A DNA stretch of 64,000 nucleotides from NCBI GenBank assembly GCA_963716395.1, contig OY970309.1, positions 2,048,001 through 2,112,000 on the forward strand, written 5' to 3'. The stretch comes from an uncultured Fibrobacteria bacterium. GTDB lineage: Bacteria; Fibrobacterota; Fibrobacteria; UBA11236. This document shows positions 5,258 through 38,287 of this stretch, one piece after another. The notes under the pieces are model-generated. The model saw nothing but the letters and a program-made list of their open reading frames with translations. It made no database searches and was not told the origin of the DNA. The position numbers and the translations under genes are program-made. Every line of letters starts with the position of its first letter. Within the stretch, counting starts at the first letter, position 1.

Positions 5258-5334
5258 ATCAGGGAAAGCGATGGGGTGATAGCGGTAAAACGAAAGGGTT
5301 GAAGAGGAGCATGGGACGGAAACGGTATTCGCCT
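5258..5334 (+). mobile_element. Degenerate copy of the G-rich oriIS-like element
   Basis: ATCAGGGAAAGCGATGGGGTG...GAAGAGGAGCATGGGACGGAAACGGTATTCG aligns by eye to the 31859 and 36412 copies. Confidence 0.4.
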
Positions 5335-5370
5335 GGTTGTGCAAGGCGTCGGTGAATTACCCTTCCTGGC

Positions 5371-6312
5371 ATGATTGCCTTAAAACCAAAAATCCTCAGC
5401 CGCCAAACTGGGCTGCTTTTCTATGGCCTGACTCCGCCCAAGCTTCAAACCGATCCCGAAAAAATGGCCGCTATCGCAGCCAGGCATGCGGCGCGGCTGC
5501 GCCCCGAAACATTGGGCTTTGCCTTGGACGGCCTGGTGCTTTACGATTTGCAAGACGAGTCCGCACGCACCGATCAGCCCCGACCTTTCCCGTTTTTGCA
5601 GACCGTGCCGCCCGAAGCTTATGCGCGCGACTTTTTGCGCGATTTGCCCATTCCCAAAATCATTTACCAAGGGGTGGGCAAGCATAGCCCCGCGTCGCTG
5701 GAAGGTTGGCTGCGCCAGGCAGCGTCTGCGGCTGAGGCTGTCGTCTTTGTAGGTTCACCCTCCAAGCATCAGATCCAGAGCATGAACTTGCGCGAAGCCT
5801 ATGCCTGGAAGCAAGCGGTGGCACCGGATTGGACCTTGGGCGGCATTGCCATTCCCGAACGGCATGCGCGCAAAGGCGATGAGCATGAACGCGTTTTCGC
5901 CAAGATGCGGCAAGGTTGCCGCTTCTTCGTCACCCAATGCGTCTATAGCGTGGAGCCGGCCAAGGATTTTCTATCGGACTATGCCTATGGCGTCGAAGCG
6001 GCAGGCCTGAAACCCGTGCCGCTCATTTTCACCTTGACGCCTTGCGGTTCCACCAAGAGCTTGCAATTCATGGAGTGGCTGGGAATCGCCATTCCCCGCT
6101 GGCTCAAAAACGATTTGAACCATACTCGAGACATTATGCGCCAATCGTTGGACGCTTGCTTGGCCATCGCCAAGGAGTTGCAAGCCTTCGCCGCCGCCAA
6201 AGGCTTGCCCATCGGCTTCAATATCGAAAGCGTCGCTATCCGCAAAGAGGAAATAGAGGCCTCCATGGAATTAGTGGCGTCGGTGCGGCGATTGCAAACC
6301 GGCAGGGATTGA
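5371..6312 (+). CDS. Methylenetetrahydrofolate reductase-like protein
   Basis: YGLTPPK, DGLVLYDLQDE, RPFPF, GGIAIPERH, FFVTQCVY, PCGS..LQFMEWLGI and GFNIESV motifs. Confidence 0.8.
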   Translation: MIALKPKILSRQTGLLFYGLTPPKLQTDPEKMAAIAARHAARLRPETLGFALDGLVLYDLQDESARTDQPRPFPFLQTVPPEAYARDFLRDLPIPKIIYQGVGKHSPASLEGWLRQAASAAEAVVFVGSPSKHQIQSMNLREAYAWKQAVAPDWTLGGIAIPERHARKGDEHERVFAKMRQGCRFFVTQCVYSVEPAKDFLSDYAYGVEAAGLKPVPLIFTLTPCGSTKSLQFMEWLGIAIPRWLKNDLNHTRDIMRQSLDACLAIAKELQAFAAAKGLPIGFNIESVAIRKEEIEASMELVASVRRLQTGRD

Positions 6313-6399
6313 AGCCCGGCCGGGCCAGCATGGAGGCTTCGCCGGCCGTACCCTATATGTTACTACCGGCCTGCGACGCGCCTCTTCCGGCCTTCGTCG

Positions 6400-6715
6400 C
6401 TGCTCAGGTTGAGTGGTGCCGAGGCCATCCCGGAACCCAAAGGTTACCTATGCGCCCAGGTCGGCTCCTGCAACCTGCATGCCGCCCGCCGGTTCCGCGC
6501 AGGCGCGCCGCCCCCGAAGCCAACGCAAGGCCGGGGAAATGCCGTCCCGGTTTATCTTATGGCGAACTTTCCCTGTGGATGTGGTTTGTCCGCGCTGTGG
6601 CGGAAGGCCGCGGCGGATGGTTCTGGTAAAGACGAAGGAGCCGATAGCGGCCTTGCTCTCCTGCATGAATTTGCCGACGGGGCTGCCGAAGGCGGGGGAG
6701 TCGCCGTTATGCTTC
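6400..6715 (+). mobile_element. IS91-family (ISCR-like) transposase remnant, internally deleted
   Basis: PEPKGYLCAQVGSCNLHAARR followed by RTFPVDVVCPRCGGRPRRMVLVKTKEPIAALLSCMNLPTG, matching the typical IS91-family C-terminal CPxCGG region. Confidence 0.7.
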
Positions 6716-6725
6716 CATGGCGTCG

Positions 6726-7286
6726 CTACCTCCGCTCCAGAAACCCTCTTCCGGCCAGGACCGCCGGCATGGCTTTTTCGATGCGAGCGATCCGCGTCGC
6801 AGACTGCTTCGCGGCGCCGAAGTGATACAGATATCCCCTCTGGCGCCCGGGCGTCAGCGCCTCGAAGGCGCGCCGGAAGTGCGGATCTTTTCGGAACTTC
6901 TCCTTCAGTTCCTCAGGAACTGGAGGCACCGAGGTCCTCTTCGCGGCCTTCAATCCGGCCATCTCTGCCGCCATCGCCTCGCGCACATAGGTTTTGATCA
7001 TGGCCGTCTTCGCGACGATCTCCGTAACGCCGGCGAACTTCATCACCCGCCCCGCCTGAATCTGCCCGAGCCGCACCAGCACTTTATCCGGATCTTTCAA
7101 TAACGCGCCCTGAAAGAACCCGAGCGCGCGATCTTCTTTGAAGCCCTGAAGAATGACCACGTTCTTGCCATCGAGCGTATAGCAGGGCTTCCCCCACTTG
7201 CACTCTTCCTTCAGATCAAACTCCGCCAGGATTTTGCGCAACGCTGCGATCTCAGCCCGCCAACGTTCGCGATATGCCATCTCCAA
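6726..7286 (-). CDS. YdeI/OmpD-associated (DUF1801) family protein
   Basis: EECKWGKPCY, FFQGALLKDP and AFEALTPGRQRGY...AKQSATRIARIEK motifs. Confidence 0.88.
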   Translation of the reverse strand: MEMAYRERWRAEIAALRKILAEFDLKEECKWGKPCYTLDGKNVVILQGFKEDRALGFFQGALLKDPDKVLVRLGQIQAGRVMKFAGVTEIVAKTAMIKTYVREAMAAEMAGLKAAKRTSVPPVPEELKEKFRKDPHFRRAFEALTPGRQRGYLYHFGAAKQSATRIARIEKAMPAVLAGRGFLERR

Positions 7287-7585
7287 GCCGTACCTCCTCT
7301 GCGATGGAGAATTGTCAGGGGCGGAAGGCCGCCGCGCGCATACGGGTGAAGATCCACCGCATGCCCGCCGCCCGATATTTGCCCGCGAATTTCCTCACGG
7401 TTGCCGCCGGCCTCGAGTGAAAAAGAATCCTGTTTTGCCGGAACAGAACACCTCTCAAAACCTAGACAAAAGCCTTCGGATACCCACCGCGAGACCGTCT
7501 GCTTGATACCGCGGTCTGCGTCGCAGCCATCGGAACGGCTTCGTGGCCGTCCTCCAACGGCCTTCGCCGCCGCTCCGAGCGATGC

Positions 7586-7672
7586 TGAAATGAATGCGAT
7601 CTCGCGTGAATGGGCGACTTGAACTTGGGAGCTAGAGTTATTGTTGGAAAAGGGGTTTCGATGTACCATTGC
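7586..7672 (+). mobile_element. G-rich oriIS-like element copy
   Basis: Starts GAAATGAATGCGATCTCGCGTGAA and ends GGAAAAGGGGTTTCGATGTACCATTGC; both parts match the 34372 and 36352 copies. Confidence 0.5.
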
Positions 7673-7738
7673 GGCCGGGTATTCCCGCACGGCGCCGTTT
7701 CGGCGTCGATAAGAATCCGGATTCCTAAAGGGGCCAAC

Positions 7739-10834: not shown

Positions 10835-10889
10835 AATGCATCCGGGGCATTCTTGAAATCAGGGATTCAAATGCGTGTTAACACCCGCT

Positions 10890-11120: not shown

Positions 11121-11184
11121 TTCCTAACGCTGTTAGCGGTTACTTCAAATAGTCGGCCGATGGGCACTTAATTCAGTTGCTCCC

Positions 11185-11290
11185 GCTCGGCCGGCGAGCT
11201 TGTCACATCAATCGAAGGGCATCAGCCGTGCACGCTCGGCCGGTGAGCCTGTCGAACCGGTCAAAGCGTATCAGCCCGCGGCGGAGTGAA
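11185..11290. repeat. REP-like module, copy 2
   Basis: CTCGGCCGGCGAGCTTGTC...TCGAAGGGCATCAGCCGTGCACGCTCGGCCGGTGAGCCTGTCGAACCGGTC; near-identical stretch at 27287-27340. Confidence 0.75.
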
Positions 11291-11730
11291 GCAGCTCTTT
11301 TTGCAGAACGCTTTTCAAGGTTCTGTGAACAGGGAATTCGGCGCATGCACTCGGTGCGCAGTACGGTTGCGATAAATTTGATTTTGAACCTCCCTTTTGG
11401 ATTACGCCGCCCATCTTCCATTGTGCCTTCCGTCATCCGAAATAACACCAATCGCTGCCCGCTGCCGTCCAAGGCTCATCGTGGAAACTTCGGCGGCGCT
11501 TTCAGCCAATCGAAAATCACGCCTGCTAGATTCCGCGCAGGTGGAGCGGTGGGGGCTTAAGCCAAGGACTGGCCGGAGTAGCGGGATGGAAAAAGCCATT
11601 ACCCTACGTATGGGAAGGGTGTGCTGTTTCTAGGGGTGAAGTGAGAGACGATTCTTAGGGCAAAAAGTGGGATAAAGCCTGGGCTAGGGACAATCGGCCC
11701 GATTCGAAACTTTTGCTTTACCCATGCGCT

Positions 11731-11776: not shown

Positions 11777-12379
11777 ATGAGCCAATTGCAGGACACTGTC
11801 CTGTTTTTGAAAAGGCATGGTCCATGCCGGACACGGGAAATTGAAGCCGCGGGATATCGGCGCCAGGATCTGCAATACCTGATCAAATCAGGAAAGGTTG
11901 AGCGTTTGGGCCGTGGCATTTACCAAGTGGCCAAGGCTGACGTCCTGACCAATCCAAGTTTTGCAGAATTGTTTTTGCGATCGCCACAGGTGGTCCTCTG
12001 TCTGCTATCGGCGCTCCATTTTCATGAACTGACAACTCAGCTTCCGCACGAAGTTTGGGTGGCGGTGAGAATGAATTCTCGGGCTCCTAAGCTGAATTAT
12101 CCACCGCTTCGGGTTGCGCACTTTTCCGGACCTGCATTCACGAAAGGTGTTGAATTCCATAAGGCGGATGGTATTTCCATCAGGGTTTATAGTGTGGCTA
12201 AAACCGTGGCCGACCTTTTCAAAATGAGAAACAAGGTGGGATTGGATATAGCCATGGAAGCATTGCGCGAAGCGCTCAGGACGAGAAAGACCACCCGCGC
12301 GGAAATAATCAAGATGGCCAAGGTCTGCCGGATGGAAAGGATCATGCGTCCGTACCTGGAAATGGAGGCCGCGATTTGA
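11777..12379 (+). CDS. abiEi: Type IV toxin-antitoxin antitoxin, AbiEi family
   Basis: VERLGRGIY, VLCLLSALHFHELTTQLPHEVWVA and VYSVAKTVADLFKMRNKVGLDIAMEAL motifs. Confidence 0.92.
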   Translation: MSQLQDTVLFLKRHGPCRTREIEAAGYRRQDLQYLIKSGKVERLGRGIYQVAKADVLTNPSFAELFLRSPQVVLCLLSALHFHELTTQLPHEVWVAVRMNSRAPKLNYPPLRVAHFSGPAFTKGVEFHKADGISIRVYSVAKTVADLFKMRNKVGLDIAMEALREALRTRKTTRAEIIKMAKVCRMERIMRPYLEMEAAI

Positions 12380-13245
12380 GCGATATGGCGCCTTCCGTGG
12401 CGCAGCGACTCCTGAATTTCAGCAAAGGCAATAACGAAGGATATAACTTCATTCTTGTCCGCTACGGTGTGGAGCGCCTGCTCTATCGGATATCCCAGCC
12501 GCCCACTGGCCAGAAGTTTGTTTTGAAGGGGGCGAGCCTTTTCTTAGTGTGCTTTGGGCATGCTTTTCGAACTACACGCGATGTGGACTTGCTGGGCATG
12601 GGTTCCTGGGACTTGGAGACGATATCGAAAATCTTCCGCGCATTATGCATGATCGATACGCTGGGCGTAGACGGATTGCTCTTCCAATCGAAAACGGTTC
12701 TGGTGAGTCGAATCAAAGAGGATCAAGACTATGAAGGCGTGCGCGTGCTTTTGCGCGCCTTGCTGGGGAAAACACACATCGATTTACAAGTTGATGTCGG
12801 GTTCGGAGATGCAATTACACCCGAAGCGGAGCGTGTCCATTTCCCAACCTTACTAGATGGACCGGCCCCTTTCCTTTTGGCTTATCCTCCATACACCGCA
12901 ATCGCCGAAAAATTCCAGGCTATGGTTGGTCTCGACATGGCGAATTCGAGAATGAAAGATTTCTACGACATTTGCGTGCTATTCCGTTCCCTTACTTTGG
13001 ATCCTGAAATTCTGGCAACGGCTGCGCAACGAACCTTTGCGCGTCGTAACATGCCCCTGCCTGGAGAAATGCCCACGGCGCTTACGCGAAATTTTTCCGA
13101 GGATCCGATGAAACAGGCCCAGTGGAATGCTTTTGTCAAAAAGAATCGGCTGACCTTGCCCATGGGTGACTTGACGGAAGTGGTCGAAGAATTGCGCATG
13201 CGCTTTGAACCGATAATGCAAATTCTGGAGTCATGGCGGGGCTGA
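12376..13245 (+). CDS. abiEii: Type IV toxin-antitoxin nucleotidyltransferase toxin, AbiEii family
   Basis: ERLLYRIS, FVLKGA, RTTRDVDLL, QVDVGFGD, IAEKFQAM and NSRMKDFYD motifs; 4-bp overlap with abiEi. Confidence 0.92.
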   Translation: MSDMAPSVAQRLLNFSKGNNEGYNFILVRYGVERLLYRISQPPTGQKFVLKGASLFLVCFGHAFRTTRDVDLLGMGSWDLETISKIFRALCMIDTLGVDGLLFQSKTVLVSRIKEDQDYEGVRVLLRALLGKTHIDLQVDVGFGDAITPEAERVHFPTLLDGPAPFLLAYPPYTAIAEKFQAMVGLDMANSRMKDFYDICVLFRSLTLDPEILATAAQRTFARRNMPLPGEMPTALTRNFSEDPMKQAQWNAFVKKNRLTLPMGDLTEVVEELRMRFEPIMQILESWRG

Positions 13246-13379
13246 AATGTTGCGCGCTTCGTCACTTACAAACTGTCTGTACCCCGTTTAGCGAGACATC
13301 GTCACCTTCGCCCTCGCTCCGGTCGATGACGAGGTAAACGTGGCCCTGGGCGAAGTCTTTGGCGATTCGGATCCCACCC

Positions 13380-13670
13380 ACTCGACCGTGCCCCCGACGG
13401 CGACCTCGGGTTCGCCTCCCGTCGGTTCCGCCTAGGCACGCCGATGCGGATGCCATGCGAAACCGCTGCGTTCCCGAAGCCTAAAGGTTACCCATGCGCC
13501 CAAATCGGTGCATTCAACTTGCATGCTTCTCGGCTTCGATGGATTGCGTTGATGAAGACGTAGGAAACGATTCAGGTCATACTGAACGATATGTCCGTCG
13601 CGGGCGAACCCGCGGGTCCACCCGCGGCGACAAAACCCAAATCGCGCGAATTCAAGCGCAAGCGCTTGAT
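13380..13670 (+). mobile_element. Second IS91-family transposase remnant, internally deleted
   Basis: PKPKGYPCAQIGAFNLHASR (homologous to 6430-6490) joined directly to LRWIALMKT*ETIQVILNDM...AGPP (homologous to 6612-6690). Confidence 0.65.
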
Positions 13671-13881
13671 TGGGCGGCGAAAGTTAAAACACGGGCTTTG
13701 ATGAACCCCGCAAATTCTGAGCGTTGTAATTGTGTGAGATATGTATCTATAATTCGGATGCGTAAAAAAAGTCCTGGCGCTACTTTAAAACTAAAGCATG
13801 AACGGAGTCGTGAAAATGCTACGAAAATCAATCGTTAATGCTGCAAACGGTTTGTTTTTATCGAAATTAGCGGGGGGGGGG

Positions 13882-16800: not shown

Positions 16801-17222
16801 TGGCTTTCGTCTGATTTATACCGGAATCGCAGCCAATACGATCCGGTGGTCATTACCGAGACGGGAAATATCAACTGGAAACTCAATGACGAGACCGACG
16901 GTCCTGCCTAGAATGGTTGACATTCTCGATGGCGTGAAAAGGGGCATGTACCTCGGGGAAGCCAACGTGAATTACAATGCGCTGGTACTTTGGTACAAAC
17001 CGCTCACAGTCGACCCCAAATTCAATGGTTTGATCAAGCATTCCGTTTGTCGGCATCGACAACCCGCCGTTCACGAGGTTTATCAATGATGCGAAAACTG
17101 ATGTAAATGACGTTCAAGGATTTATCAATCTCAATGGATGGCCCTCTTTTTGTGGCGACATCAACAGTCTCGGCTTAGAATACTACCGAAGAATCAATGG
17201 AGTTGAATGTGGTGCGCCTTAA
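13882..17222 (+). CDS. Large secreted protein (~1100 aa): two beta-solenoid (DUF3494-like) domains plus a C-terminal clan GH-A catalytic-like domain; frameshifted in this sequence
   Basis: Stitched from 13974..15683, ~15655-15960, 15964..16911, ~16900-17040 and ~17040-17222. Signal peptide ...FLLGLILLPAAGVQA; duplicated LAPGxY...L.L..G.Y.F.SL; WEIGNEPN, ISVHYYP, VVITETG; ends GWPSFCGDINSLGLEYYRRINGVECGAP*. Confidence 0.65.
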
Positions 17223-17709
17223 TACTGCATTCGTGTTCGCGTTTTCCTTATGCCTCTTTGGATGCGGTTTGTTTTCCGATTCTTCCTACGAAGAAGACGT
17301 TTTAAACGATAGAAGTATTGTGGACGAAATTATCAAGGCCAATCCGGTATTGGATTCTGCTGTACAAGCCGGTCATTACTTTCTGCCCTACAGTAGCGAA
17401 TCCGGTCGAATTACTGGAAATTTGGATTTAAGCGATTTAGGGCTCAACGACAGCAATTTTTATTTTCCTAAAAGCATTAATGATTTTAAAATCGTCAATC
17501 AGGTTAATCTTATCGGTAACGACTTTACCGATTTGCCACAAGGTATACACCAAAAAAAATGGGATGTCGTATTGGTTTTGGGCAACAAAATGTGCAATCC
17601 TAGCCAAGAAACAATCGATTATTTGGATAGTTTGATGAAAGGTTTTCCCGGTGGTTACTGGCGCGACTCCCAGCACTGCAGCGATTCCATTCCGGCGCCC
17701 TCGCCATGA
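17197..17709 (+). CDS. LRR lipoprotein, cassette 1 (intact)
   Basis: Lipobox LFGC; LDLSDLGL / VNLIGNDFTDLP / VLVLGNKMC repeats; YWRDSQHC cap; start overlaps the upstream gene's 3' end. Confidence 0.8.
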   Translation: MELNVVRLNTAFVFAFSLCLFGCGLFSDSSYEEDVLNDRSIVDEIIKANPVLDSAVQAGHYFLPYSSESGRITGNLDLSDLGLNDSNFYFPKSINDFKIVNQVNLIGNDFTDLPQGIHQKKWDVVLVLGNKMCNPSQETIDYLDSLMKGFPGGYWRDSQHCSDSIPAPSP

Positions 17710-17869
17710 AATGAAAAAAAATTCAGGAGGTGATTTTCTGCCTGGGCATTTTATCACAACGAAACCATCCGGGCGGTTTATTGCCTCCGGCTTTCTCCTG
17801 TCTTGTTCGGGTATCCAAACTTTTGCGGTGACATGAACAGTCTCGGCTTGGAATACTACCGAAGAATCA

Positions 17870-18386
17870 ATGGAGGTGCTTGTGTTGCGCCTTAATATTT
17901 TGTTGGTTTGTTTGATAACATTGTTTATCTACGGATGCGGGTTTCTATTTGGAGATTCTTACGAGGAGGACAAAAATAATGACTGGAAAATCGTACGTGA
18001 AATAATTGCGGCCAATCCCGTGCTCAGTTCTGCAATTGATTCCGGCCACTACTTTTTGCCGACAGATGCAGAGTATGGCAGGATTACTGGAGAATTAAAT
18101 CTAGGTGGTTTGGGATTAAATGACAGCAATTTTTATTTTCCCGCAAGTATTCGTAATTTCAGAATAGTGAAATCCTGTTAATCTAGCCAACAATCAATTC
18201 ACAGACTTACCGAGAGGTACCCGAAATAAGAATTGGAATTGCCGTCTTAGTTATGGGCAAACAAAATATGCAACCCTAGCCAGGCAACGATCGATTATTT
18301 GGATAGTATTGATGAAAGGATCACCAGGAGGTTACTGGCGCGACTCCCAGCACTGCAACGATTCCATTCCGGCGCCCTCGCCATGA
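17870..18386 (+). CDS. LRR lipoprotein, cassette 2 (frameshifted)
   Basis: Lipobox IYGC; paralog of cassette 1; indels after 18170; ends ...PAPSP*. Confidence 0.7.
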
Positions 18387-18543
18387 AATGAAAAAATCAG
18401 GAGGTGATTTTCTGCCTGGGCATTTTATCACAACGAAACCATCCGGGCGGTTTATTGCCTCCGGCTTTCCCTTGTCTTGTTCGGGTATCCAAACTTTTGC
18501 GGTGACATGAACAGTCTCGGCTTGGAATACTACCGAAGAATCA

Positions 18544-19058
18544 ATGGAGGTGCTTGTGTTGCGCCTTAAATAATTTGTTGGTTTGTTTGATAACATTGTT
18601 TATCTACGGATGCGGGTTTCTATTTGGAGATTCTTACGAGGAGGATAAAAATAATGACTGGAAAATCGTGCGTGAAATAATCACGGCCAATCCCGTGCTC
18701 GGATTCTGCAATTGATTCCGGCCATTACTTTTTGCCGACAGATGCAGAATATGGCCGGATTACTGGAGAATTGGATTTGAGTGGATTGGGACTTAGTGAT
18801 AGTGATTTTTATTTCCCTAAAAGCATTCAAAATTTCAGAATCGTCAAATCTGTTAATTTATCTCGTAATAATTTCACAGAGTTGCCATTAGGTACCAGGC
18901 TTAAAAGCTGGTTGTCGGTTTTGGTATTAGGGAATAAAATGTGCAACCCCAGTACAGAAACGGTGGCGTACTTGGATACCTTAATGAAGGGATTTGGTGG
19001 GCCCTATTGGCGAGACTCCCAGCGCTGTAATGATTCTATACCGGCGGCAGTCCCATGA
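18544..19058 (+). CDS. LRR lipoprotein, cassette 3 (frameshifted near 5' end)
   Basis: 5' part near-identical to cassette 2; ORF 18732..19058 LDLSGLGL..VNLSRNNFTELP..LGNKMC..YWRDSQRC. Confidence 0.7.
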
Positions 19059-19219
19059 TTGAGGCCAAAAGTTAGGCGGTGGTTCTGTGCTAGGGAAATC
19101 AGGTTCTCTGACAAAGTCTTGTCGGCATTTTTCCCCCTTGATGGCCCTAGCGTTCTACGGATGGTCCTCATTTTGCGGTGACATGAACAGTCTCGGCTTG
19201 GAATACTACCGAAGAATCA

Positions 19220-19736
19220 ATGGAGTTGATTGCGGTGCGCCTTAATATTTTGTTGGTTTGTTTGATAACATTGTTTATCTACGGATGCGGGTTTCTATTT
19301 GGAGATTCTTACGAGGAGGACAAAAATAATGACTGGAAAATCGTGCGTGAAATAATTACGGCCAATCCCGTGCTCAGATCTGCCAATTGATTCCGGCCAT
19401 TACTTTTTGCCGACGGATGCCGAGTATGGCCGGATTACTGGAGATTGGATTTAGATGGTTTGGGATTAAATGACACCAATTTTCATTTTCCCGCGAGTAT
19501 TCGTAATTTCAAGATCGTTAAATTCCTTAGTTTATGCCGCTAACGAATTCTACAGACTACCGTAAGGCACAAGAGACAAAAAATGGGAGAGTCGTGGTGC
19601 CTTGGTTCAACAATATTTGCAACCCAAGTCTGAAACGGTGACGTATTTGGATAAAATGATGGAGGGATTTCCGGGTGGTCCCTATTGGCGCGATACCCAG
19701 CACTGTAGTGATTCCACTCCGGCGCCCTCGCCATGA
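19220..19736 (+). CDS. LRR lipoprotein, cassette 4 (multiple indels)
   Basis: Same signal peptide and N-terminus as cassettes 2-3; ends YWRDTQHCSDSTPAPSP*. Confidence 0.6.
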
Positions 19737-20064
19737 AATGAAAAAATCAGGGGGGTGATTTTCTGCCTGGGCATTTTATCACAACGAAACTATCCGGGCG
19801 GTTTTTTGCCTCCGGCTTTCTCCTGTCTTGTTCGGGTATCCAAACTTTTGCGGTGACATGAACAGTCTCGGCTTGGAATACTACCGAAGAATTAATGGAG
19901 TTGAATGTGGTGGATCTGAATCGGGGTGAACCTTATCTTCGATACCCACCGGAATCTTTGAAGTCGGAACAGAAGGCGTTGAGGCGGGATGATTTGGACG
20001 GCAGTAAGAAATGGGTGCTTCAAAAACCGGCTGAAACAGGAATCAAAAAATCCGGGAGGTTGAT

Positions 20065-21474: not shown

Positions 21475-21538
21475 ACCGCTGGTTATGGCAGTAAAACCGA
21501 TTTTGTCCCAAAAATGGCGCTTTATTGCGATTAACATT

Positions 21539-21560
21539 GGTATATACTATGGTATATGCC
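21539..21560. promoter_or_regulatory. vapBC operator palindrome overlapping a putative promoter
   Basis: GGTATATAC-TATG-GTATATGCC; TTGCGA(21525)-17 bp-TATGGT. Confidence 0.6.
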
Positions 21561-21571
21561 ACGGAGGGAAA

Positions 21572-23099: not shown

Positions 23100-23273
23100 A
23101 GAGGGAATCCCGGCTTAAAGGAAAAGTCGCCGAATCTAAAACGTTCGGAAAGACCAAAAATAAGTCAACGGGCATGCGCGCCAACGTGGGTTTTCGTCTC
23201 CGCTCCCGGTAATGACGAAGTGAACGCGATCCGGAGCGAAGGCTGCGGCGGATTGCTCGGACGAAGGTGGATT

Positions 23274-25309: not shown

Positions 25310-25403
25310 GGCCCTCTCGGCCGGTGCGCTTGGTTCCCGAGCGTGTCGAGGGTTGTCGAACCGGTCGAACCGGACGAAGGGCATTAGTTTGCGGCGGATT
25401 GAG
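25310..25403. repeat. REP-like module, copy 3 (nested)
   Basis: CTCGGCCGGTGCGCTTGGTTCCCGAGCGTGTCGAGGGTTGTCGAACCGGTCGAA...GCGGCGGATTGA; closest to copy 1. Confidence 0.75.
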
Positions 25404-26920: not shown

Positions 26921-27215
26921 AAGTTGAGTTACCGGCCTGGGTCGGAAGCGCGGGATATCGAATTTCATTGGCAAATCCAAACCCATTTTCAACCGGCAAA
27001 CCACTTGCTCGGCCCAATCTATCCTGCCCGCCTCTTTGAAGTTGAAGACCCCCCGACGCGACGGGCGTCAGGGTTTGCTTGACTTCCATCCCCCGCGGGC
27101 ACGGCAAAAGTTTTTCATCACAACACAATTGTTGCGGTCGACGAAGCCGAAACCTTTGCTGACGCCGATGGGCATGGAGGTAGCATGCGCGTTCACCACG
27201 CCGGGCTTGTTTCGG

Positions 27216-27422
27216 GGCAAGATAAAAAGAGGTTACTTCGTCGAGTTCAACCGCGCCCATTCGGCTGGGTGAGCTAGTCGCAACGGTCGAAGGGCATCAG
27301 CCGTGCCCACTCGGCCGGTGGGCCTGTCGAACCGGTCGAAGCGGTTCGATCCGCGGCAGATTGAAACGGCACTATGTGAGATCGCTTTTAGTTTTTCCGC
27401 GCCGAGTGACTTCGGCGCAGGC
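27216..27422. repeat. Copy of the pcrA promoter tip plus REP-like module, copy 4
   Basis: GGGCAAGATAAAAAGAG matches 3868-3884 and 29877-29892; 27350-27422 is near-identical to 29990-30063. Confidence 0.8.
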
Positions 27423-27494
27423 ACGGATTGGCCGGAGTATCCGGACTAGTCGGCATGTTGGGTCACCGGCACGCTATCCTGCGGCGGAAGGATG

Positions 27495-27657
27495 CGGTGT
27501 GTCTTGGGTTGAATCGGATGGAGATGCTGCGAGTGGAAAATGGAATGCGGGCGGGGGAAAACGGCGTGTGGGGCTGGAATCGAGGGGATTTGGACGGGAA
27601 GACTGGGGCTGGGGAAGGTGGCCACGGATGGAAAACAAGGTTCGATTTATCTGCGCT
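27495..27657 (+). mobile_element. G-rich oriIS-like element copy
   Basis: GTGTGTCTTGGGTTGAATCGG...GGAAAACAAGGTTCGATTTATCT aligns with 36360-36520. Confidence 0.6.
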
Positions 27658-29307: not shown

Positions 29308-29937
29308 CATAGCTTCACCAGGCGCTCTTCATACGGATCGCCGATGCGGCGCGAAGCTTCCTCGGGTCCCAACCCCTGGTTTGGTAGCGGCTGATGGTGG
29401 AACGGATATTGTCGACGGAGAAACGCGCGTCGGTTTCCAGCCCTTCGCTTTGGATCAACTTTTTGAGATACCGTTTTTGATCGTCGACATCGTAAATGGT
29501 GAAATGCGAGGAGTAGCCTGGGCGCCCGGCGTGGAAGCGGAGCAGGCGGGCGCAAATGGAGTGAAAGGTTCCCATCCACCGCAACGGAGCTTCGTATCCC
29601 AGCAGTTTGTCCACGCGCTTGCGCATTTCCCGCGCGGCCTTGTTGGTAAAGGTCACGGCGAGGATTTCATGGGCGTGGTAGCGGTGCTCTTTGATGAGAT
29701 AGGCGATTTTATAGGTGAGTACCCGGGTCTTGCCGCTACCGGCCCCCGCCAGAATTAGTTGCGGGCTGGGCGTGTGCAGCACGGCTTCGAGCTGTTCGGG
29801 GTTGAGAAGTTGGCGCAGGGGCTTCGGCGTTTAATTCCGGGACGGTGGCATAACGCGCTTCAAGACCTTCCACCAAGGGCAAGATAAAAGAGATGCCGTC
29901 CGTCGAAAGCGCAGAGCGCGCTGCATTCGGCTGGTTC
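29308..29937 (-). pseudogene. pcrA: Truncated second copy of the pcrA 5' end and upstream region
   Basis: LILAGAGSGKTRVLTYKIAYL...TFTNKAAREM...WMGTFHSICARLLRFHA; collinear with 3295-3929 and stops after ~190 codons. Confidence 0.9.
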
Positions 29938-29939
29938 AG

Positions 29940-30063
29940 CCGCGGACATCCGGCCGGGTGAGGCTAGTCGCATCGGTCGAAGGACGCCAGCCGCGGCGGA
30001 TTGAAACGGAACTATATGAGATCGCTTTTAACGTTTCCGCGCCGAGTGACTTCGGTGCAGGCG
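29940..30063. repeat. REP-like module, copy 5
   Basis: CGGCCGGGTGAGGCTAGTCGCATCGGTCGAAGG...GCGGCGGATTGAAACGG...GACTTCGGTGCAGGC. Confidence 0.75.
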
Positions 30064-31618: not shown

Positions 31619-31844
31619 AAATGGTCTTCCTCTTCTTTTCCTTTGAAGATTGGTCTCTGCCTAGTCTTGCGAGCGACGCGACGCAAGATATCCCTTACAT
31701 AGGTTTCATAATATCGCGCAGAAGTGTCCATCCGGGGGGCTTCATGCAATGAGTACGGGAGTTCCTGCGCTTTCGTGATCGGTGTTTCAGCGCCGGCCCT
31801 ATGAAAAAAAGTGCCTTTTGAACAATTGGGCGAAGAAATTTTGG

Positions 31845-31965
31845 AGCAAAAGTGAAGTATCAGGCGGTAGAGATGGGGCGTGGGGTATAAATTGAGAGAC
31901 TGGGACAGACGATTGGACGTTGGCTCGAAGAGAGATTTTCGGATAAGGAGTTCGAATTGACTTTT
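31845..31965 (+). mobile_element. G-rich oriIS-like element copy
   Basis: ATCAGGCGGTAGAGATGGGGCGTGGGGTATAAATTGAGAG is near-identical to 36412-36451; ends GGAGTTCGAATTGACTTTT. Confidence 0.65.
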
Positions 31966-32042
31966 AACATCCGAAAAAAATTAAACGGTTCAATCGCAGT
32001 TCGAGCCGTCACATTTTCTTAGGTAGGGAAGGGAATTCTGAA

Positions 32043-34094: not shown

Positions 34095-34371
34095 GAATAC
34101 CGCAGAAGAAAATCGCGTTTTGGGCACAAACAAAATCTTTAACCTAAACCGGGTCCAAATACCGCTACTACAAGTTCGGGTCATCCGATCATTGTTTGTG
34201 CGAGTTATTTCCCTTCAGGAATTGGAACGTCCGGCGTTCCGCAATCTGGAGTGTAAGGCCAATCAGCAAGAACAGAATCGGATTAATGCCCGCTGCAAAA
34301 ATCGTCATCTCAAGGCGCAAAGCAATTTCTCGCAATAACTCGTACGTCCTCTCGGCTAACCTGCGGTGAAA

Positions 34372-34513
34372 TGAGGTGAAGTGCGTCGTGGGCTTGAACT
34401 GCGCAGCGATTTGAGAGCGGAATGCGGGGTTCAGGTGGGGAAAAGGAGGGTGCGCGGCTCGAAACCAGGGTAGGGTACTATTGCTGGGAGCCGGGTTTTG
34501 ATTTACCTATGCT
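34372..34513 (+). mobile_element. G-rich oriIS-like element copy
   Basis: GTGAAGTGCGTCGTGGGCTTGAA...CGGGTTTTGATTTACCTATGCT. Confidence 0.65.
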
Positions 34514-34516
34514 CCC

Positions 34517-36033: not shown

Positions 36034-36351
36034 AGCGTGTTTTCCATTCTGTTTAATGGCTCGCCCGCTTTGGGCCAACCCGTTTTCGGAATTGAAGCAT
36101 GCAATTAATCAGTCCTAATTTATCCTCGGCCGGTAAATACCGCAGTAGAAGCCTGGGCGAATTTAGCCGGCGTCGGCTGGAACGAGCGAGAAACTCGTAG
36201 CGGCATCAATTTCCACTCGGGAATCGCGCGCGATTGCGGACGGAAAACCAATTTTGGGAATCAATTAGCGTTGGTTTTACACCTGTTTGTGTCCATGGAT
36301 TTGGGAACCCGCATCTGTTTCCCAAACAACTTGGAAATACGCTTCGAAAAG

Positions 36352-36524
36352 CAGAAGTGAAGTGCGCCTCGGGTTGAATCCGGCGATGAATTTATGCAGA
36401 AAAAGTCAAAAATCAGGCGGTAGAAATGGGGGGTGGGGCATAAATTGAGAGCCTGGGGCAGGCAATTCGGGGGTAGGGCGAAGAGGAAAATTATGGGGAA
36501 AACGGGTTCGATTTACCTATTCCC
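36352..36524 (+). mobile_element. G-rich oriIS-like element, most complete copy
   Basis: GAAGTGAAGTGCGCCTCGGGTTGAATCC...ATCAGGCGGTAGAAATGGGGGGTGGGGCATAAATTGAGAG...AAACGGGTTCGATTTACCTATTCCC. Confidence 0.7.
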
Positions 36525-36597
36525 CAATGTGCATCGATAACAGAGGCAGAAAAATGGAATATTCATCACGTGGAATTGGTGCTAATCATTCCGAAAA

Positions 36598-38130
36598 ATG
36601 TTTTCACCCCTGAACTCGAAACGGATGAAGCGGATGTTTTTCAGGGCGCTCCTGGCATGCCTCTCCCTTCCCCTGTTCAGCCAAACCATGGCGGCATACG
36701 CCACCGATGTGACCGTGAACCCGGCCGTCAAACACCAGGTGATCGACGGCTTCGGAGCCTCCAGCGCCTGGTGCGGGACCATCAGCAGCACGGTGATGAA
36801 TTCGCTTTACGGCGATCTGGGCTTCAGCATCCTGCGCGTGCGGATTGAAGAAGGTATCGGAGACAGTTGGCAGAACGGGCCCTACACGAGCTGGGCGCCC
36901 GAACTCGCCAACGCGAAAAGCGCAATTGCCCACGGCGCCATCGTGTTCGCGTCTCCATGGAATCCCCCGCCCAGCATCCGGACGGCGGGGACCGGCGGCA
37001 ATGAATATATGGTGGACAGCAGCATGTGGCCGACCTACCGGGACTACCTGAACGCCTATGTCAAGTACTTCAAGGACAACGGCGTCGACCTTTACGCCAT
37101 CTCCATCCAGAACGAGCCGGACTACGCCAACAGTTGGACGGGCTGGTCCGCGGCCCAGATCCACAACTTCATCCTGGAGTACGGCGCCTCCATCACCACC
37201 AAGCTGATCTCGGGGGAGTCGTTCACTTACAACAAGGCCTACTATGACCCCATCCTTAACGACACCAAGGCCCTCGCCAATGTCGCCATCTTCGGCACTC
37301 ACATCTACGGGACTTCGGTGAGCAATTACGCCTATCCCCTCTTCCAACAGATCGGCGTGCCGGCGGGCAAGAAGCTCTGGATGACCGAACACTATCTCAA
37401 CAGCGACGACAACATCACCACCACGATCATGCCGGTCGCCAAGGAGATCCACGACTGCCTGGTCACGGGGAACATGAACGCCTACGTCTACTGGTGGATC
37501 ACCTACGGCAACGGCTTGGCCACGTCTTCCGGCACCATCTACAAGCGGGCCTACGTAATCGGGCAGTTCGCCAAGTACGTCCGCCCGGGCTACTACCGCG
37601 TGGACGCCACCGAAACCCCCGCCACCAACGTATCTGTGAGCGCCTACGCCGGCGCCGACTCGGTGGTCATCGTGGCCATCAATACCGGCACCAGCGCCGT
37701 GAGCCAGAATTTCAGCATTCAGAACGCGACCGTTGCCCAGTTTTCCTCGTGGAACACCACCGCCAACACCAATATGGCCGCGGGTTCGGCGGCTACCGTG
37801 ACGGGTGGCTCGTTTACCGCGAGCCTTCCGGCCCAGAGCATCACCACCTTTGTCGGTAAGAACACCGCGACCTCCCTCATTTCGCGTTCGCTGGCTTCCA
37901 CGCCGGCTGCGGAATTCAAAACGGTGCTTTCGGGGGGAAACATCGTTGTCACCCCCGCGAACAAAGACAACGGCTATAACATTTCGGTGTACATGCTGAA
38001 TGGGCCTTTGGTTGCAAGCAAGCGCGGAAACCGCGGTGTCTTGGCGATTCCGGTCAGCACCAAAGGTCTCTACGTCGTCGACATCACCGCAAACGGACGG
38101 AAGCAGCGAAATATCCTGCCGGTTTACTGA
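36598..38130 (+). CDS. GH30_8 glucuronoxylanase (XynC-like) with C-terminal sorting domain
   Basis: QVIDGFG, LGFSILRVRI, VFASPWNPP, LYAISIQNEPDYA, LWMTEH, AYVYWW and GQFAKYVRPGYYRVDAT motifs. Confidence 0.9.
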   Translation: MFSPLNSKRMKRMFFRALLACLSLPLFSQTMAAYATDVTVNPAVKHQVIDGFGASSAWCGTISSTVMNSLYGDLGFSILRVRIEEGIGDSWQNGPYTSWAPELANAKSAIAHGAIVFASPWNPPPSIRTAGTGGNEYMVDSSMWPTYRDYLNAYVKYFKDNGVDLYAISIQNEPDYANSWTGWSAAQIHNFILEYGASITTKLISGESFTYNKAYYDPILNDTKALANVAIFGTHIYGTSVSNYAYPLFQQIGVPAGKKLWMTEHYLNSDDNITTTIMPVAKEIHDCLVTGNMNAYVYWWITYGNGLATSSGTIYKRAYVIGQFAKYVRPGYYRVDATETPATNVSVSAYAGADSVVIVAINTGTSAVSQNFSIQNATVAQFSSWNTTANTNMAAGSAATVTGGSFTASLPAQSITTFVGKNTATSLISRSLASTPAAEFKTVLSGGNIVVTPANKDNGYNISVYMLNGPLVASKRGNRGVLAIPVSTKGLYVVDITANGRKQRNILPVY

Positions 38131-38169
38131 CAGGAGTCGCGGCCCCGGCCATGATTTTAGTTTTGCACG

Positions 38170-38287
38170 GTGGAAAACCGGTGGGGTAAATGCGCGCGTG
38201 TGGTTCGCATCGGGGTGCAATGAATAGCTCAGTTGAAGTTGGGTTCGTGGGTCGGTGATGGGAACCAAGCTTCGATTTGCCTATGCA
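38170..38287 (+). mobile_element. G-rich oriIS-like element copy overlapping the next start codon
   Basis: GGTGGGGTAAATGCGCGCGTGTGGTTCGCATCGGGG...AAGCTTCGATTTGCCTATGC. Confidence 0.5.

What the first reader, a model, noticed from the sequence alone, without database searches (positions are those of the whole stretch)
5258..38287. A ~36-kb cassette-like island punctuated by a stack of IS91/ISCR oriIS-like ends, with no integrase
Seen: a G-rich ~90-170 bp non-coding element recurs in one orientation at 7586, 27495, 31845, 34372, 36352 and 38170. Weaker or partial copies lie at 5258, 11635, 13690, 23217 and 30225. Its 3' end is the most conserved part: CGGGTTCGATTTACCTATTCC, CGGGTTTTGATTTACCTATGC, AGCTTCGATTTGCCTATGC, AGGTTCGATTTATCT, GGTTTCGATGTACCATTGC. 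Copies fall at boundaries between unrelated cargo genes, and two IS91-family transposase remnants are on the same strand. Established (recalled, needs checking): IS91/ISCR oriIS ends lie downstream of tnp, resemble G-GTTT--A-TTCCTAT-C, and these elements mobilise flanking DNA by rolling-circle read-through. Inference: repeated HUH-transposase insertion between pcrA and guaB built an integron-like array of CAZyme and defence cargo, with the tnp genes deleted and only ori ends left.
Basis: partly seen in the sequence, partly recalled or inferred. Interest (0 to 1): 0.78.

Follow-up and report, generated by a model that had tools for sequence, protein, structure and literature searches.

The report
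Stacked ends of rolling-circle transposons
The repeated G-rich element is the tail end of a rolling-circle jumping gene of the IS91/ISCR family, left as broken same-direction copies across a patch of accessory genes; it is a new member of a known kind, not a new kind of system.

Summary
Six copies plus one degenerate copy (11554-11727) form one family on the + strand. All stop at the same 3' nucleotides (...TTCGATTTACCTAT[G/T]C).

A scan of public genomes with this end gave 118 loci. 37 of them come from 10 Fibrobacterota MAGs. In 13 of those 37, and in 0 of the 81 other loci, an IS91-family transposase gene or fragment lies directly upstream on the same strand.

Related full-length transposases of about 500 aa carry the Zn-finger and Y2_Tnp domains. 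Loci fragments are 31-34% identical to ISCR transposases.

The end sits about 190-210 nt after the transposase stop, as oriIS does in ISCR1/2/3. It resembles their termini (...GTTT-N5-TTCCTATAC).

The window also holds two transposase pseudogene fragments (6316-6703, 13292-13650). It holds no intact copy, and no integrase was found.

Four of the five claimed weak copies are not supported as copies of the tail.

It is not shown that the ends assembled the cargo genes. Every copy is 5'-truncated and diverged, so this looks like a graveyard of rolling-circle insertions in a low-GC accessory island. Synteny in relatives could not be checked.

The parts
6316..6703 (+). IS91/ISCR-family transposase pseudogene fragment 1. 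It covers the C-terminal part only, with frameshifts and an internal deletion. It includes the CPxCGG...LVK...PTG tail motif. No ori end follows it.
   Evidence: tblastn with MAG transposase pieces gives E down to 1.8e-13. Full-length Tnps P0003-P0008 match it at their aa ~264-307 and ~367-513. Pfam, NCBIfam and a word-based protein search did not recognise it.
7561..7678 (+). Internally deleted copy (c7586). A 50-nt transposase crumb (7561-7610) is fused to the last ~90 nt of the ori-side tail, which ends ...TTCGATGTACCATTGC at 7672.
   Evidence: blastn of 7561-7610 to L029 and L014 tnp DNA gives 82-88% identity. nhmmer with the MAG-only HMM gives E 4e-7. Leave-one-out gives E 0.012.
11554..11727 (+). 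Degenerate copy. It holds the transposase stop region (GGCCGGAGTAGCGGG) plus the tail, and ends ...TTTGCTTTACCCATGC.
   Evidence: MAG-only HMM E 7.6e-6. z 7.1 against the 27495 copy, 0 of 300 shuffles. Motif seen.
13292..13650 (+). IS91/ISCR-family transposase pseudogene fragment 2 (Tnp aa ~216-335, then ~478-545; the HUH motif is missing). A possible, statistically unsupported, degenerate end lies at about 13660-13713.
   Evidence: blastn to L029 and L014 gives 70-74% identity over 212-245 nt of the window, E 2e-33 and 5e-27. tblastn E 2e-21. Matches to full-length Tnps. Sequence read.
27421..27656 (+). Copy c27495, the most complete tail. It holds the last 8 transposase codons (DWPEYPD, stop TAG at 27447-27449) plus a 207-nt non-coding tail ending ...TTCGATTTATCTGCGC.
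   Evidence: MAG-only HMM E 7.2e-14. blastn to L021, L029, L031, L097, L104 and L106. Codons read. tblastn alignment.
31811..31973 (+). Copy c31845 with a degenerate 3' end (GAGTTCGAATTGACTTTTAAC). It is 78% identical to c36352 over 109 nt.
   Evidence: Leave-one-out nhmmer E 6.8e-8. The repeat finder family D9. Not found by the MAG-only HMM.
34355..34512 (+). Copy c34372, ending GGTTTTGATTTACCTATGC.
   Evidence: Leave-one-out E 1.5e-4. MAG-only HMM E 1e-8.
36325..36522 (+). Copy c36352, ending GGGTTCGATTTACCTATTC.
   Evidence: Leave-one-out E 1.8e-13. MAG-only HMM E 4.8e-12.
38136..38286 (+). Copy c38170, ending AGCTTCGATTTGCCTATGC. It starts 6 nt after the stop of the GH30-like ORF.
   Evidence: Leave-one-out E 1.6e-10. 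MAG-only HMM E 1.7e-8.
23190..23249 (+). Possible transposase crumb, from the same part of Tnp as 7561-7610. Marginal.
   Evidence: tblastn E 0.005 and 0.02, 60% identity over 20 aa.
29318..29937 (-). Second, truncated copy of the 5' end of pcrA (171 aa in the scanned ORF) with its upstream region. It is colinear with 3403-3929 at a constant offset of about 26,008. It may mark how part of the island entered.
   Evidence: the repeat finder families D5, D11, D15 and D20, 78-93% identity. Pfam UvrD-helicase E 5e-44 on 29318-29830.
27216..27425 (+). Composite flank. A 16-nt stretch identical to the pcrA start region (also at 3869-3884) is followed by repeat 'R', which abuts the transposon tail. 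Other R copies lie at 11179-11350, 25311-25398, 29936-30062 and, in part, 3948-4035.
   Evidence: The 16-mer occurs exactly twice; 0 of 100 shuffles gave 2 or more matches. blastn among R copies gives 76-86% identity, E 1e-23 to 9e-29. No R-like DNA was found in any of the 118 loci.

Best explanation
WHAT IT IS. The element is the 3' non-coding tail, on the oriIS side, of an ISCR-like member of the IS91 family of HUH rolling-circle insertion sequences. This lineage of the family is found in a clade of Fibrobacterota.

A full element, in order:
- a transposase gene of about 1.5 kb (Zn-finger, HUH, single RY tyrosine region, C-terminal CxxC);
- a stop codon in the motif ...DWPEYPD*;
- a G-rich tail of about 190-210 nt;
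- a fixed terminus ...GAAAA(N)GG(G/C)TTCGATTTACCTATGC(N)C.

SHOWN.
- The window holds seven copies of this tail and two transposase pseudogene fragments.
- All are on the + strand and all lack the 5' part of the element. None can be autonomous.
- All tails share the same right-hand end, while their left ends vary.
- They lie in a 34-kb stretch whose G+C (0.46-0.59 over 10-38 kb) is below that of the housekeeping flanks (0.60-0.65).

INFERRED, from what is established for IS91. The transposase nicks at the ori end. Replication runs leftwards towards terIS. A single-stranded circle is released and inserted next to a short target.
- Stopping early gives ori-anchored truncated copies.
- Stopping late carries flanking DNA along.
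- Repeated, strand-specific events of this kind in a dispensable region, followed by decay, would leave this same-orientation stack.

At least some flank co-mobilisation is suggested. DNA otherwise found in front of pcrA sits fused to a tail at 27216-27656, and a truncated second pcrA 5' end lies at 29.3-29.9 kb.

The copies are most likely inert fossils today.
For: PUBLIC LOCI.
37 are from 10 Fibrobacterota/Fibrobacteria MAGs.
- the HMM of the window copies hits 28 loci at E<1e-3. All 28 are among those 37; 0 are among the other 81.
- Pfam Y2_Tnp and/or Zn_Tnp_IS91 ORFs lie upstream on the same strand in L001, L009, L014, L029 and L031.
- transposase-like coding DNA lies directly upstream on the same strand in 13 of 37 Fibrobacterota loci and 0 of 81 others. 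It ends 34-200 nt before the end of the motif, and its left limits vary.
- similarity between copies stops 0-4 nt past the 19-mer in nearly all pairs (for example L001-L009, 90% over 916 nt, ending at +3).
- 11 of 37 loci have a contig end 33-921 nt upstream of the motif, as expected of a multicopy repeat that breaks assemblies.

TRANSPOSASE.
- 72 longer proteins (441-720 aa) match at E<=1e-20, and 66 of them carry both PF14319 and PF04986. P0003 (504 aa) has HFH at 156-158 and CRYI at 311-314.
- loci fragments are 31-34% identical to ISCR1 and to an ISCR3-like transposase across the HUH, CRYI and C-terminal Cys motifs.
- tblastn against plasmids hit the 5000-record limit. Listed hits are annotated as IS91-like ISCR1 or ISVsa3, E about 1e-20 to 1e-27.

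THE END ITSELF.
- the ISCR1, ISCR3-like and ISVsa3 termini lie 230-242 nt after the stop codon.
- a 25-nt Fibrobacterota end matches these termini at 14-16 of 25 positions. The terminus ranks 1st (3 ties), 1st and 2nd among about 7000 sites per locus.
- the columns TT, T and C are invariant, and GG, GATT, C, TAT, C and C nearly so, across 42 aligned ends including the ISCR ends.

WINDOW.
- the copies and remnants.
- the G+C profile.
- the pcrA duplication and the flank composites.

LITERATURE (passages read with 'find').
- PMC13181058: roles of oriIS and terIS, one-ended transposition, the target tetranucleotide, and the single-stranded circle.
- PMC6218425: the 232-bp oriIS region of ISCR1 and the variable genes downstream of it.
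- PMC5737581: a conserved oriIS 167 bp after the CDS; one-ended transposition needs only oriIS plus the tetranucleotide and moves variable lengths of adjacent DNA.
Against: - No complete element with both ends was seen. The 2-kb flanks and the contig breaks cut every copy, so terIS is unknown, and the only near-full transposase gene seen next to an end (L029) is frameshifted.
- An HMM of the last 44 nt of the Fibrobacterota ends does not retrieve the ISCR termini. The likeness to known oriIS rests on 14-16 of 25 matches plus position.
- No consensus subterminal hairpin was predicted: 0 pairs in 28 sequences. Single-copy folds have z-scores from -1.3 to +0.5.
- The bases after CCTAT are GC-N-C, not the CTTG/GTTC/GTCC targets reported for IS91-group elements.
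- Pfam, NCBIfam and a word-based protein search did not recognise the window's transposase remnants. Only searches with the MAG sequences did.
- c31845 is not found by the MAG-only HMM.
- The mechanism steps (early or late termination, strand-specific insertion) are inferred, not observed.
- In the window all six main copies lie 0-150 nt upstream of a co-directional ORF. A purely fossil reading does not predict this.
Confidence: 0.8

Rival explanations
1. Live cassette system. Each truncated ori tail is still a working rolling-circle origin. A transposase supplied in trans starts there and copies the gene(s) lying upstream. The pcrA-guaB interval would then be an integrase-free array of ori-tagged CAZyme and defence cassettes, assembled by one-ended transposition.
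For: - One-ended transposition needs only oriIS and a flanking tetranucleotide, and moves variable lengths of adjacent DNA (PMC5737581 and PMC13181058, passages).
- The tails have a fixed right end and variable left ends.
- DNA identical to the pcrA start region, plus repeat R, is fused to a tail at 27216-27656. R lies about 200 nt upstream of another tail at 11179-11727.
- A truncated pcrA 5' end is duplicated 26 kb away.
- Same-orientation pairs of ends 3.6-3.7 kb apart also occur on two MAG contigs (L013/L014 and L021/L106).
- The island has low G+C.
Against: - The window tails are only 50-78% alike, so they are old.
- Four tails (7586, 11554, 27495, 31845) have degenerate termini.
- No intact transposase gene lies in the window.
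- No cargo-plus-tail unit was found twice in the MAG loci.
- No transposition of any ISCR element had been shown experimentally as of PMC6218425 (passage).
- Synteny in relatives is unchecked.
Confidence: 0.15
2. Host regulatory element. The repeat is a promoter or 5' leader family serving secreted glycoside hydrolases, and its likeness to transposon ends is incidental or secondary.
For: - In the window 6 of 6 main copies end 0-150 nt upstream of a co-directional ORF: GH44-like, PAS-SpoIIE, GH141, lipocalin-like, GH30-like and a 639-aa unknown.
- The oriIS region of ISCR1 carries outward promoters that drive downstream genes (PMC6218425, passages). Exaptation is therefore conceivable.
Against: - Transposase DNA lies directly upstream in 13 of 37 MAG loci, and contigs break inside the element.
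- The nearest Pfam-supported downstream ORF is co-directional in only 13 of 20 independent MAG loci and convergent in 7.
- No Rfam match at gathering threshold, and none on the elements when 27.2-38.4 kb was searched at E<=10.
- No stable or conserved fold.
- Sigma-70-type sites number 7 against 6.7 expected, and none lies inside a tail apart from one at its left edge. That scan does not cover other promoter types.
- No copy stands in front of any gene in 39-64 kb.
Confidence: 0.04
3. Two-ended non-autonomous mini-elements. Repeat R would be the unknown terIS-side left end, so that R plus tail (27253-27656; 11179-11727) are MITE-like deletion derivatives mobilised in trans. The lone R copies would be solo left ends.
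For: - R abuts the tail at 27.4 kb and lies about 200 nt upstream of the tail at 11.5 kb.
- R occurs five times, all on the + strand and only inside the island.
- R contains near-palindromes and a 7-bp hairpin (read).
- Internal-deletion derivatives do exist in MAGs (L070).
Against: - R-like DNA is absent from all 118 loci.
- A colinear though weak protein alignment suggests instead that R is the diverged C-terminal coding end of the transposase (38% over 71 aa, E 1.5e-5, carried largely by the tail part).
- R also lies upstream of both pcrA copies, as if it belonged to that flank.
Confidence: 0.07
4. Integrase-type island with tRNA-derived attachment repeats. The GGTTCGATT core resembles a tRNA T-loop, so the repeats could be att scars of tandem islands.
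For: Only the T-loop-like core GGTTCGA(T/A)T, read.
Against: - No tRNA or tmRNA gene in the window.
- No integrase among 203 translations scanned.
- The repeat extends 100-235 nt upstream into transposase-derived sequence.
Confidence: 0.01

Closest known systems
ISCR elements (ISCR1, ISCR2/ISVsa3, ISCR3-like), the ISCR group of the IS91 family
   Same: - HUH rolling-circle transposase. Fragments from the loci are 31-34% identical and share LNxH(F/Y)HxLFLDGVY, LCRYIxRP and a C-terminal CxxC...R(L/I)(I/V)A motif.
- The ori-side end lies on the same strand, 190-242 nt after the stop codon.
- The terminus is of the form AAAAGG..GTT......CCTAT(A/G)C.
- Unrelated accessory genes lie beyond the end.
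   Different: - The core reads TTCGATTTACCTATGC instead of TT(T)(G/A)(A/T)(A/T)CTTCCTATAC, and a profile of the one does not retrieve the other.
- The host is Fibrobacterota, not Proteobacteria.
- Neighbouring genes are glycoside hydrolases and toxin-antitoxin or abortive-infection modules, not antibiotic-resistance genes.
- There is no class 1 integron context.
- In the window every copy is a 5'-truncated fossil.
IS91, IS801, IS1294 (the classical IS91 group)
   Same: - Distinct ori and ter ends instead of inverted repeats.
- Rolling-circle transposition with frequent failure of termination (one-ended transposition).
- A sharp ori end with a variable far end (PMC13181058, passages).
   Different: - The reported target tetranucleotides (CTTG, GTTC, GTCC) do not flank these ends; GC-N-C does.
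- The subterminal palindromes reported for oriIS were not detected.
- No ends of these three elements were fetched here, so no direct comparison of sequence was made.
Helitrons (eukaryotic rolling-circle transposons). Recalled, not tested here.
   Same: HUH-type rolling-circle mobility, capture of flanking host gene fragments, and many non-autonomous or truncated copies that share only their termini.
   Different: Eukaryotic; Rep-helicase fusion protein; different termini. This is an analogy of behaviour only.
Integron gene-cassette arrays
   Same: One-directional series of unrelated accessory genes punctuated by a recurrent short element.
   Different: No integrase, no attC-type imperfect inverted repeats, and the recurrent element derives from a transposon. 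The likeness is superficial.

Membership tests
IS91 family (ISCR group) | Transposase with an N-terminal zinc-binding domain, an HUH motif and the Y2_Tnp catalytic domain | tested here: met
   Met for the element lineage. Pfam PF14319 and/or PF04986 match ORFs next to the end in 5 loci. 72 longer proteins match at E<=1e-20, and 66 of them carry both domains. P0003 has HFH at 156-158 and CRYI at 311-314. Loci fragments align to ISCR1 and to an ISCR3-like Tnp. The window itself holds only remnants that lack the HUH part.
IS91 family (ISCR group) | The ori end lies downstream of tnp on the same strand and forms a sharp element boundary | tested here: met
   The tnp-like span ends 34-200 nt before the motif end, on the same strand, in 13 of 37 loci. 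Pairwise similarity stops at 0 to +4 in nearly all pairs. In the window the stop codon lies 207 nt before the end.
IS91 family (ISCR group) | Terminal oriIS sequence resembling that of known members | tested here: inconclusive
   14-16 of 25 ungapped matches to the ISCR1, ISCR3-like and ISVsa3 termini, which rank 1st (3 ties), 1st and 2nd of about 7000 sites per locus. Shared columns appear in the 42-sequence alignment. The profile search did not retrieve these termini.
IS91 family (classical group) | Target tetranucleotide CTTG, GTTC or GTCC adjacent to the ori end | tested here: not met
   The bases after CCTAT are GC, then T, G, A or C, then C in 36 of 37 loci. The first two were fixed by the search pattern. 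In the window they read GCTC, TCCC, GCAC, GCGC, GCGG and GCTA.
IS91 family | Imperfect subterminal palindrome(s) at oriIS | tested here: inconclusive
   RNAalifold on the last 71 nt of 28 copies predicted 0 pairs. Single-copy folds were no better than shuffles. RNA parameters were used for what would be a DNA hairpin.
IS91 family | A terIS end with its palindrome and cleavage site at the other side of tnp | not testable with these tools
IS91 family | Single-stranded circular intermediates; rolling-circle transposition | not testable with these tools
   This needs reads or experiments.
Integron | Tyrosine-recombinase integrase next to the array, and attC sites with paired inverted cores | tested here: not met
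   No integrase family among 203 translations. The repeat shows no conserved pairing.
Described RNA families (Rfam 15) | Match to a curated covariance model | tested here: not met
   0 matches at gathering score over the whole window. When 27.2-38.4 kb was searched at E<=10, the only two matches were chance-level and lay off the elements.

The most novel reading that the evidence does not exclude
The truncated ori tails are still usable rolling-circle origins. A transposase encoded elsewhere in the genome starts at a tail and copies whatever lies upstream of it. Fibrobacterota would then shuffle glycoside-hydrolase and defence genes as ori-tagged cassettes without any integrase. The composites of pcrA-flank plus tail, and the stray pcrA 5' end, would be products of this process. 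They would also be natural evidence of ISCR-type one-ended transposition, which had not been shown experimentally for any ISCR element as of PMC6218425 (2018, passage).
Probability: 0.15. Interest if true: 0.72.

Novelty: new member of a known kind. Interest (0 to 1): 0.42.

Why it matters
- It extends the ISCR-like branch of the IS91 family to environmental Fibrobacterota and gives its ori-side terminus.
- Annotation pipelines would miss these tails. Pfam, NCBIfam and Rfam found nothing on them or on the window's transposase remnants.
- The tails explain why contigs of the related Fibrobacterota MAGs break at these sites.
- The ori-anchored nested truncations, all in one orientation, are a natural record of how rolling-circle transposition starts at a fixed point and stops at variable ones. 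They may also record how it drags flanking DNA such as a pcrA 5' end.
- If cargo capture were confirmed, it would bear on how polysaccharide-degrading gene sets are assembled in this phylum.

Tried and rejected
- Rfam, whole window at gathering score and 27.2-38.4 kb at E<=10: nothing relevant.
- ARAGORN: no tRNA or tmRNA, which removes the tRNA-att idea raised by the T-loop-like GGTTCGATT.
- Single-copy RNA folds: z-scores from -1.3 to +0.5. I had thought I saw a hairpin with the motif in the loop and differing stems. I dropped it, because the 3' half of those stems lies outside the element and RNAalifold found 0 pairs.
- CsrA-type GGA-rich sRNA, ECF-sigma, sigma-54 and Bacteroidetes-type -7 box readings of the motif: considered from recalled consensus sequences only. 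I dropped them once transposase genes turned up upstream.
- Pfam and NCBIfam on the window's ORFs: no IS91 family hit.
- The search for homologous proteins with the 6413-6997 translation, longer lengths: none. The tool itself calls this weak evidence.
- blastn of copy 36340-36535 against plasmids: 4 chance-level hits, E 0.6-7.
- nhmmer with a 44-nt end profile against three ISCR loci: the termini were not retrieved.
- Sigma-70 promoter scan: 7 sites against 6.7 expected.
- Search for cargo or flank shared between tails in MAG loci: only internal-deletion variants and orthologous loci (L035/L061/L079).
- Repeat R as transposon-derived: only a weak colinear protein alignment, and no DNA match in any locus. 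Left open.
- GC skew: no clear replication-direction signal, so it could not explain the single orientation.

Full report
THE WINDOW. It has 58% G+C.
- Housekeeping genes lie at both sides: a cytidylyltransferase, pcrA (1585-3873, - strand) and PadR on the left; guaB (40244-41758), priA, a dUTPase, NfeD and a cyclopropane-fatty-acid-type methyltransferase on the right.
- Accessory genes lie between them, mostly on the + strand:
  - a GH44-like protein;
  - AbiEi/AbiEii;
  - a DUF7305 adhesin-like protein;
  - a 675-bp tandem repeat;
  - MazE/PIN;
  - a glucose/sorbosone dehydrogenase;
  - a PAS-SpoIIE phosphatase;
  - an arabinofuranosidase;
  - GH141;
  - a lipocalin-like protein;
  - a SASA esterase;
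  - a GH30-like protein;
  - a 639-aa protein of no family.
- G+C is 0.60-0.65 in the flanks and 0.46-0.59 between 10 and 38 kb.

IS THE REPEAT REAL? Yes.
- The six main copies align with 50% mean column identity.
- Leave-one-out profile searches recover each left-out copy as the best new hit in the window, with E from 0.012 (7586) to 1.8e-13 (36352).
- The 3' motif is over-represented: 9 matches against 2.85 expected, and 0 of 100 shuffles reached 9.
- Of the five weaker copies, only 11635 holds up (z 7.1; E 7.6e-6). 5258 and 30225 are no better than shuffles. 13690 and 23217 are not similar to the tail, although they lie beside or on transposase-derived DNA.
- No copy lies in 39-64 kb.
- One marginal hit lies on the - strand at 26961-27030.

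FIRST LEADS, ABANDONED.
- All six copies end 0-150 nt upstream of a co-directional ORF, so I first considered a promoter or leader.
- Rfam gave nothing, and there is no tRNA gene.
- Folds are no more stable than shuffles.
- Pfam and NCBIfam saw no IS91 domain anywhere in 3.8-39 kb.
- A word-based protein search with the 6413-6997 translation found nothing.

THE DECISIVE STEP. I spent the single scan of public genomes on the element's end.
By my own arithmetic a pattern of this information content should give roughly 140 chance hits in the whole collection.
- 37 of the 118 loci come from 10 Fibrobacterota/Fibrobacteria MAGs.
- A profile of the window copies hits 28 loci at E<1e-3. All 28 are among those 37.
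- In those loci the similarity runs upstream from the motif and stops within 0-4 nt after it in nearly all pairs. Examples are L001 against L009 (90% over 916 nt, ending at +3) and L021 against L097 from different MAGs (97% over 213 nt, ending at +2).
- 11 of the 37 loci have a contig end 33-921 nt upstream of the motif. This is how a multicopy repeat breaks an assembly.

WHAT LIES UPSTREAM.
- Pfam finds Y2_Tnp and/or Zn_Tnp_IS91 ORFs on the same strand in L001, L009, L014, L029 and L031.
- tblastn with those pieces finds transposase-like DNA directly upstream, always on the same strand, in 13 of 37 Fibrobacterota loci and in 0 of the other 81. It ends 34-200 nt before the motif end, and its left limit varies from -228 to beyond -1450.
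- Related full-length transposases exist. 72 proteins of 441-720 aa match at E<=1e-20, 66 of them with both domains, and most lie on contigs of 2-3 kb.
- P0003 (504 aa) is identical to L009 over the fragment. It has HFH at 156-158 and CRYI at 311-314.
- Loci fragments are 31-34% identical to ISCR1 and to an ISCR3-like transposase across the HUH, CRYI and C-terminal cysteine motifs.
- tblastn against plasmids reached its 5000-record limit, with hits annotated as IS91-like ISCR1 or ISVsa3.

COMPARISON WITH KNOWN ORI ENDS. I fetched three annotated elements.

| Element | Locus | End sequence | nt after stop |
|---|---|---|---|
| ISCR1 | L119 | ...AAAAAGGTGGTTTATACTTCCTATACCC | 230-232 (PMC6218425 gives a 232-bp oriIS region) |
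| ISCR3-like | L120 | ...GAAAAGGGCGTTTGAACTTCCTATACG | 242 |
| ISVsa3 (ISCR2) | L121 | ...GAAAAGGGCGTTTATTCTTCCTATACG | 233 |
| Fibrobacterota | MAG loci and window | ...GAAAAGGGCTTCGATTTACCTATGC(N)C | 190-207 |

- A 25-nt Fibrobacterota end matches the three termini at 14, 16 and 15 positions. The terminus ranks first (3 ties), first and second among about 7000 sites per locus.
- The 42-sequence alignment shares TT, T and C in all rows, and GG, GATT, C, TAT, C and C in nearly all.
- Against this, a profile of the last 44 nt does not retrieve the ISCR termini, and no conserved hairpin is predicted.
- The flanking bases are GC-N-C, not the CTTG/GTTC/GTCC targets of IS91-group elements (PMC13181058, passages).
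- I therefore file the element in the family on the transposase and on the position and sharpness of the end, with the terminal likeness as support.

THE WINDOW RE-READ WITH MAG SEQUENCES AS PROBES.
- Two transposase pseudogene fragments lie on the + strand, at 6316-6703 and 13292-13650. They cover only about aa 216-335 and 367-545 of a transposase of 504-574 aa, so the HUH motif is gone.
- Copy 7586 begins with a 50-nt transposase crumb.
- Copy 27495 begins with the last eight codons, DWPEYPD and stop, and so holds the whole 207-nt tail.
- A profile built from MAG loci alone finds 27421-27649, 36325-36525, 34360-34516, 38167-38289, 7585-7667 and 11554-11684.
- All pieces are on one strand. 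All keep the right end or lie 3' in the element. None keeps the 5' part.
- The MAG loci show the same ori-anchored nested truncation.
- Two MAG contigs carry two ends each, in the same orientation, 3.6-3.7 kb apart (L013/L014 and L021/L106). L031 has a second transposase fragment 1.6-2.0 kb downstream on the same strand.

HOW IT MOST LIKELY WORKS.
- Established for IS91 (PMC13181058 and PMC5737581, passages): the transposase starts at oriIS. Replication runs to terIS. A single-stranded circle is the insertion intermediate. Termination fails in 1-14% of events and then carries flanking DNA along. oriIS plus its flanking tetranucleotide suffices.
- Inferred here: a fixed right end with variable left ends is what early or late termination would leave.
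- Strand-specific insertion would explain the single orientation. I could not test this, and the GC skew gives no clear direction.
- The copies are 50-78% alike, and four have degenerate termini. I read them as fossils.

DID THE ENDS ASSEMBLE THE CARGO? Open.
- For:
  - The G+C is low.
  - A 16-mer identical to the pcrA start region (3869 and 27216; 0 of 100 shuffles gave 2 or more matches) is followed by repeat R and then directly by a tail.
  - R lies about 200 nt from another tail at 11.2-11.7 kb.
  - A truncated second pcrA 5' end with its upstream region lies 26 kb from the real one at 78-93% identity. This could be flank carried by one-ended transposition, or the scar of a circle integrated by homologous recombination.
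- Against:
  - No gene-plus-tail unit recurs among the MAG loci.
  - The nearest Pfam-supported downstream ORF is co-directional in 13 and convergent in 7 of 20 independent MAG loci.
  - There is no sigma-70-type promoter signal in the tails.
- The comparison of the pcrA-guaB interval across relatives could not be run.

LITERATURE.
- A search for IS91 with Fibrobacter returned 5 papers. I read passages of one, PMC9208149, which only lists Fibrobacteres among phyla with few IS-containing genomes.
- A search for oriIS, truncated and one-ended transposition returned 4 papers, 3 of them listed.
- None of the titles and abstracts listed, nor the passages read, describes arrays of solo ori tails or this lineage.
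- I saw no supplements, and subscription journals are not covered.

VERDICT. The identification as IS91/ISCR ori-side ends is supported. The cassette-array mechanism is plausible but unproven. This is a new member of a known kind.

Noticed in passing
window 3403-3929 and 29411-29937 (pcrA fragment ORF 29318-29830, - strand): The 5' end of pcrA and its upstream region occur twice, colinear at an offset of about 26,008, at 78-93% identity. The second copy is a 171-aa N-terminal fragment. This could be flank moved by one-ended transposition, or the scar of a circle integrated by homologous recombination.
   Followed up: partly
window 3948-4035, 11179-11350, 25311-25398, 27253-27425, 29936-30062 (all + strand): A second island-specific repeat, 'R'. 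It has one or two units like CTCGGCCGGTGAGC..GTCGAACCGGTCGAAGGGCATCAGCC, then CCGCGGCAGATTGAAACGG...GCGCCGAGTGACTTCGGCGC. It is absent from 40-64 kb and from all 118 public loci. Its origin is unresolved: the diverged transposase C-terminus, the unknown left end of the element, or a host REP-like repeat.
   Followed up: partly
window 17148-19920: Four tandem copies of a unit of about 675 bp (62-98% alike), with ORFs of 100-170 aa that have no Pfam family. They lie in the lowest-G+C part of the window (0.46).
   Followed up: no
window 20174-20836: Five 117-bp (39-codon) tandem repeats inside the DUF6242-like ORF 20065-21201.
   Followed up: no
window 11777-13245 and 21485-22206: Two toxin-antitoxin or abortive-infection type modules, AbiEi/AbiEii and MazE-like/PIN. 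The first is followed directly by transposase fragment 2.
   Followed up: no
window 22409-22978 (- strand): A carbon-nitrogen hydrolase ORF that matches only profile positions 130-255 of 256, so it is probably a truncated gene.
   Followed up: no
window 26961-27030 (- strand): A marginal inverted match to the 3' part of the tail (E 0.03-0.6 in four searches), just after the dehydrogenase stop codon. If real, it is the only copy in the opposite orientation.
   Followed up: partly
L070 (oriented -399 to -17), compared with L029: An internal-deletion derivative. An N-terminal transposase segment is joined directly to the last ~20 codons and the tail, so non-autonomous forms of this element exist in the MAGs.
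   Followed up: partly
L021 against L097: Tails from two different MAG assemblies are 97% identical over 213 nt, far closer than any pair in the window. This suggests recent activity or transfer in those lineages.
   Followed up: no
L029, just after the element end: The end is followed by a GCCCAA hexanucleotide run (gccccaagcccaagcccaagcccaagccc...).
   Followed up: no
window 38255-40174 and 36598-38130: A 639-aa ORF has no Pfam family. A 510-aa ORF has only sub-threshold GH30 matches (E 0.001-0.007). Both follow a tail directly.
   Followed up: no
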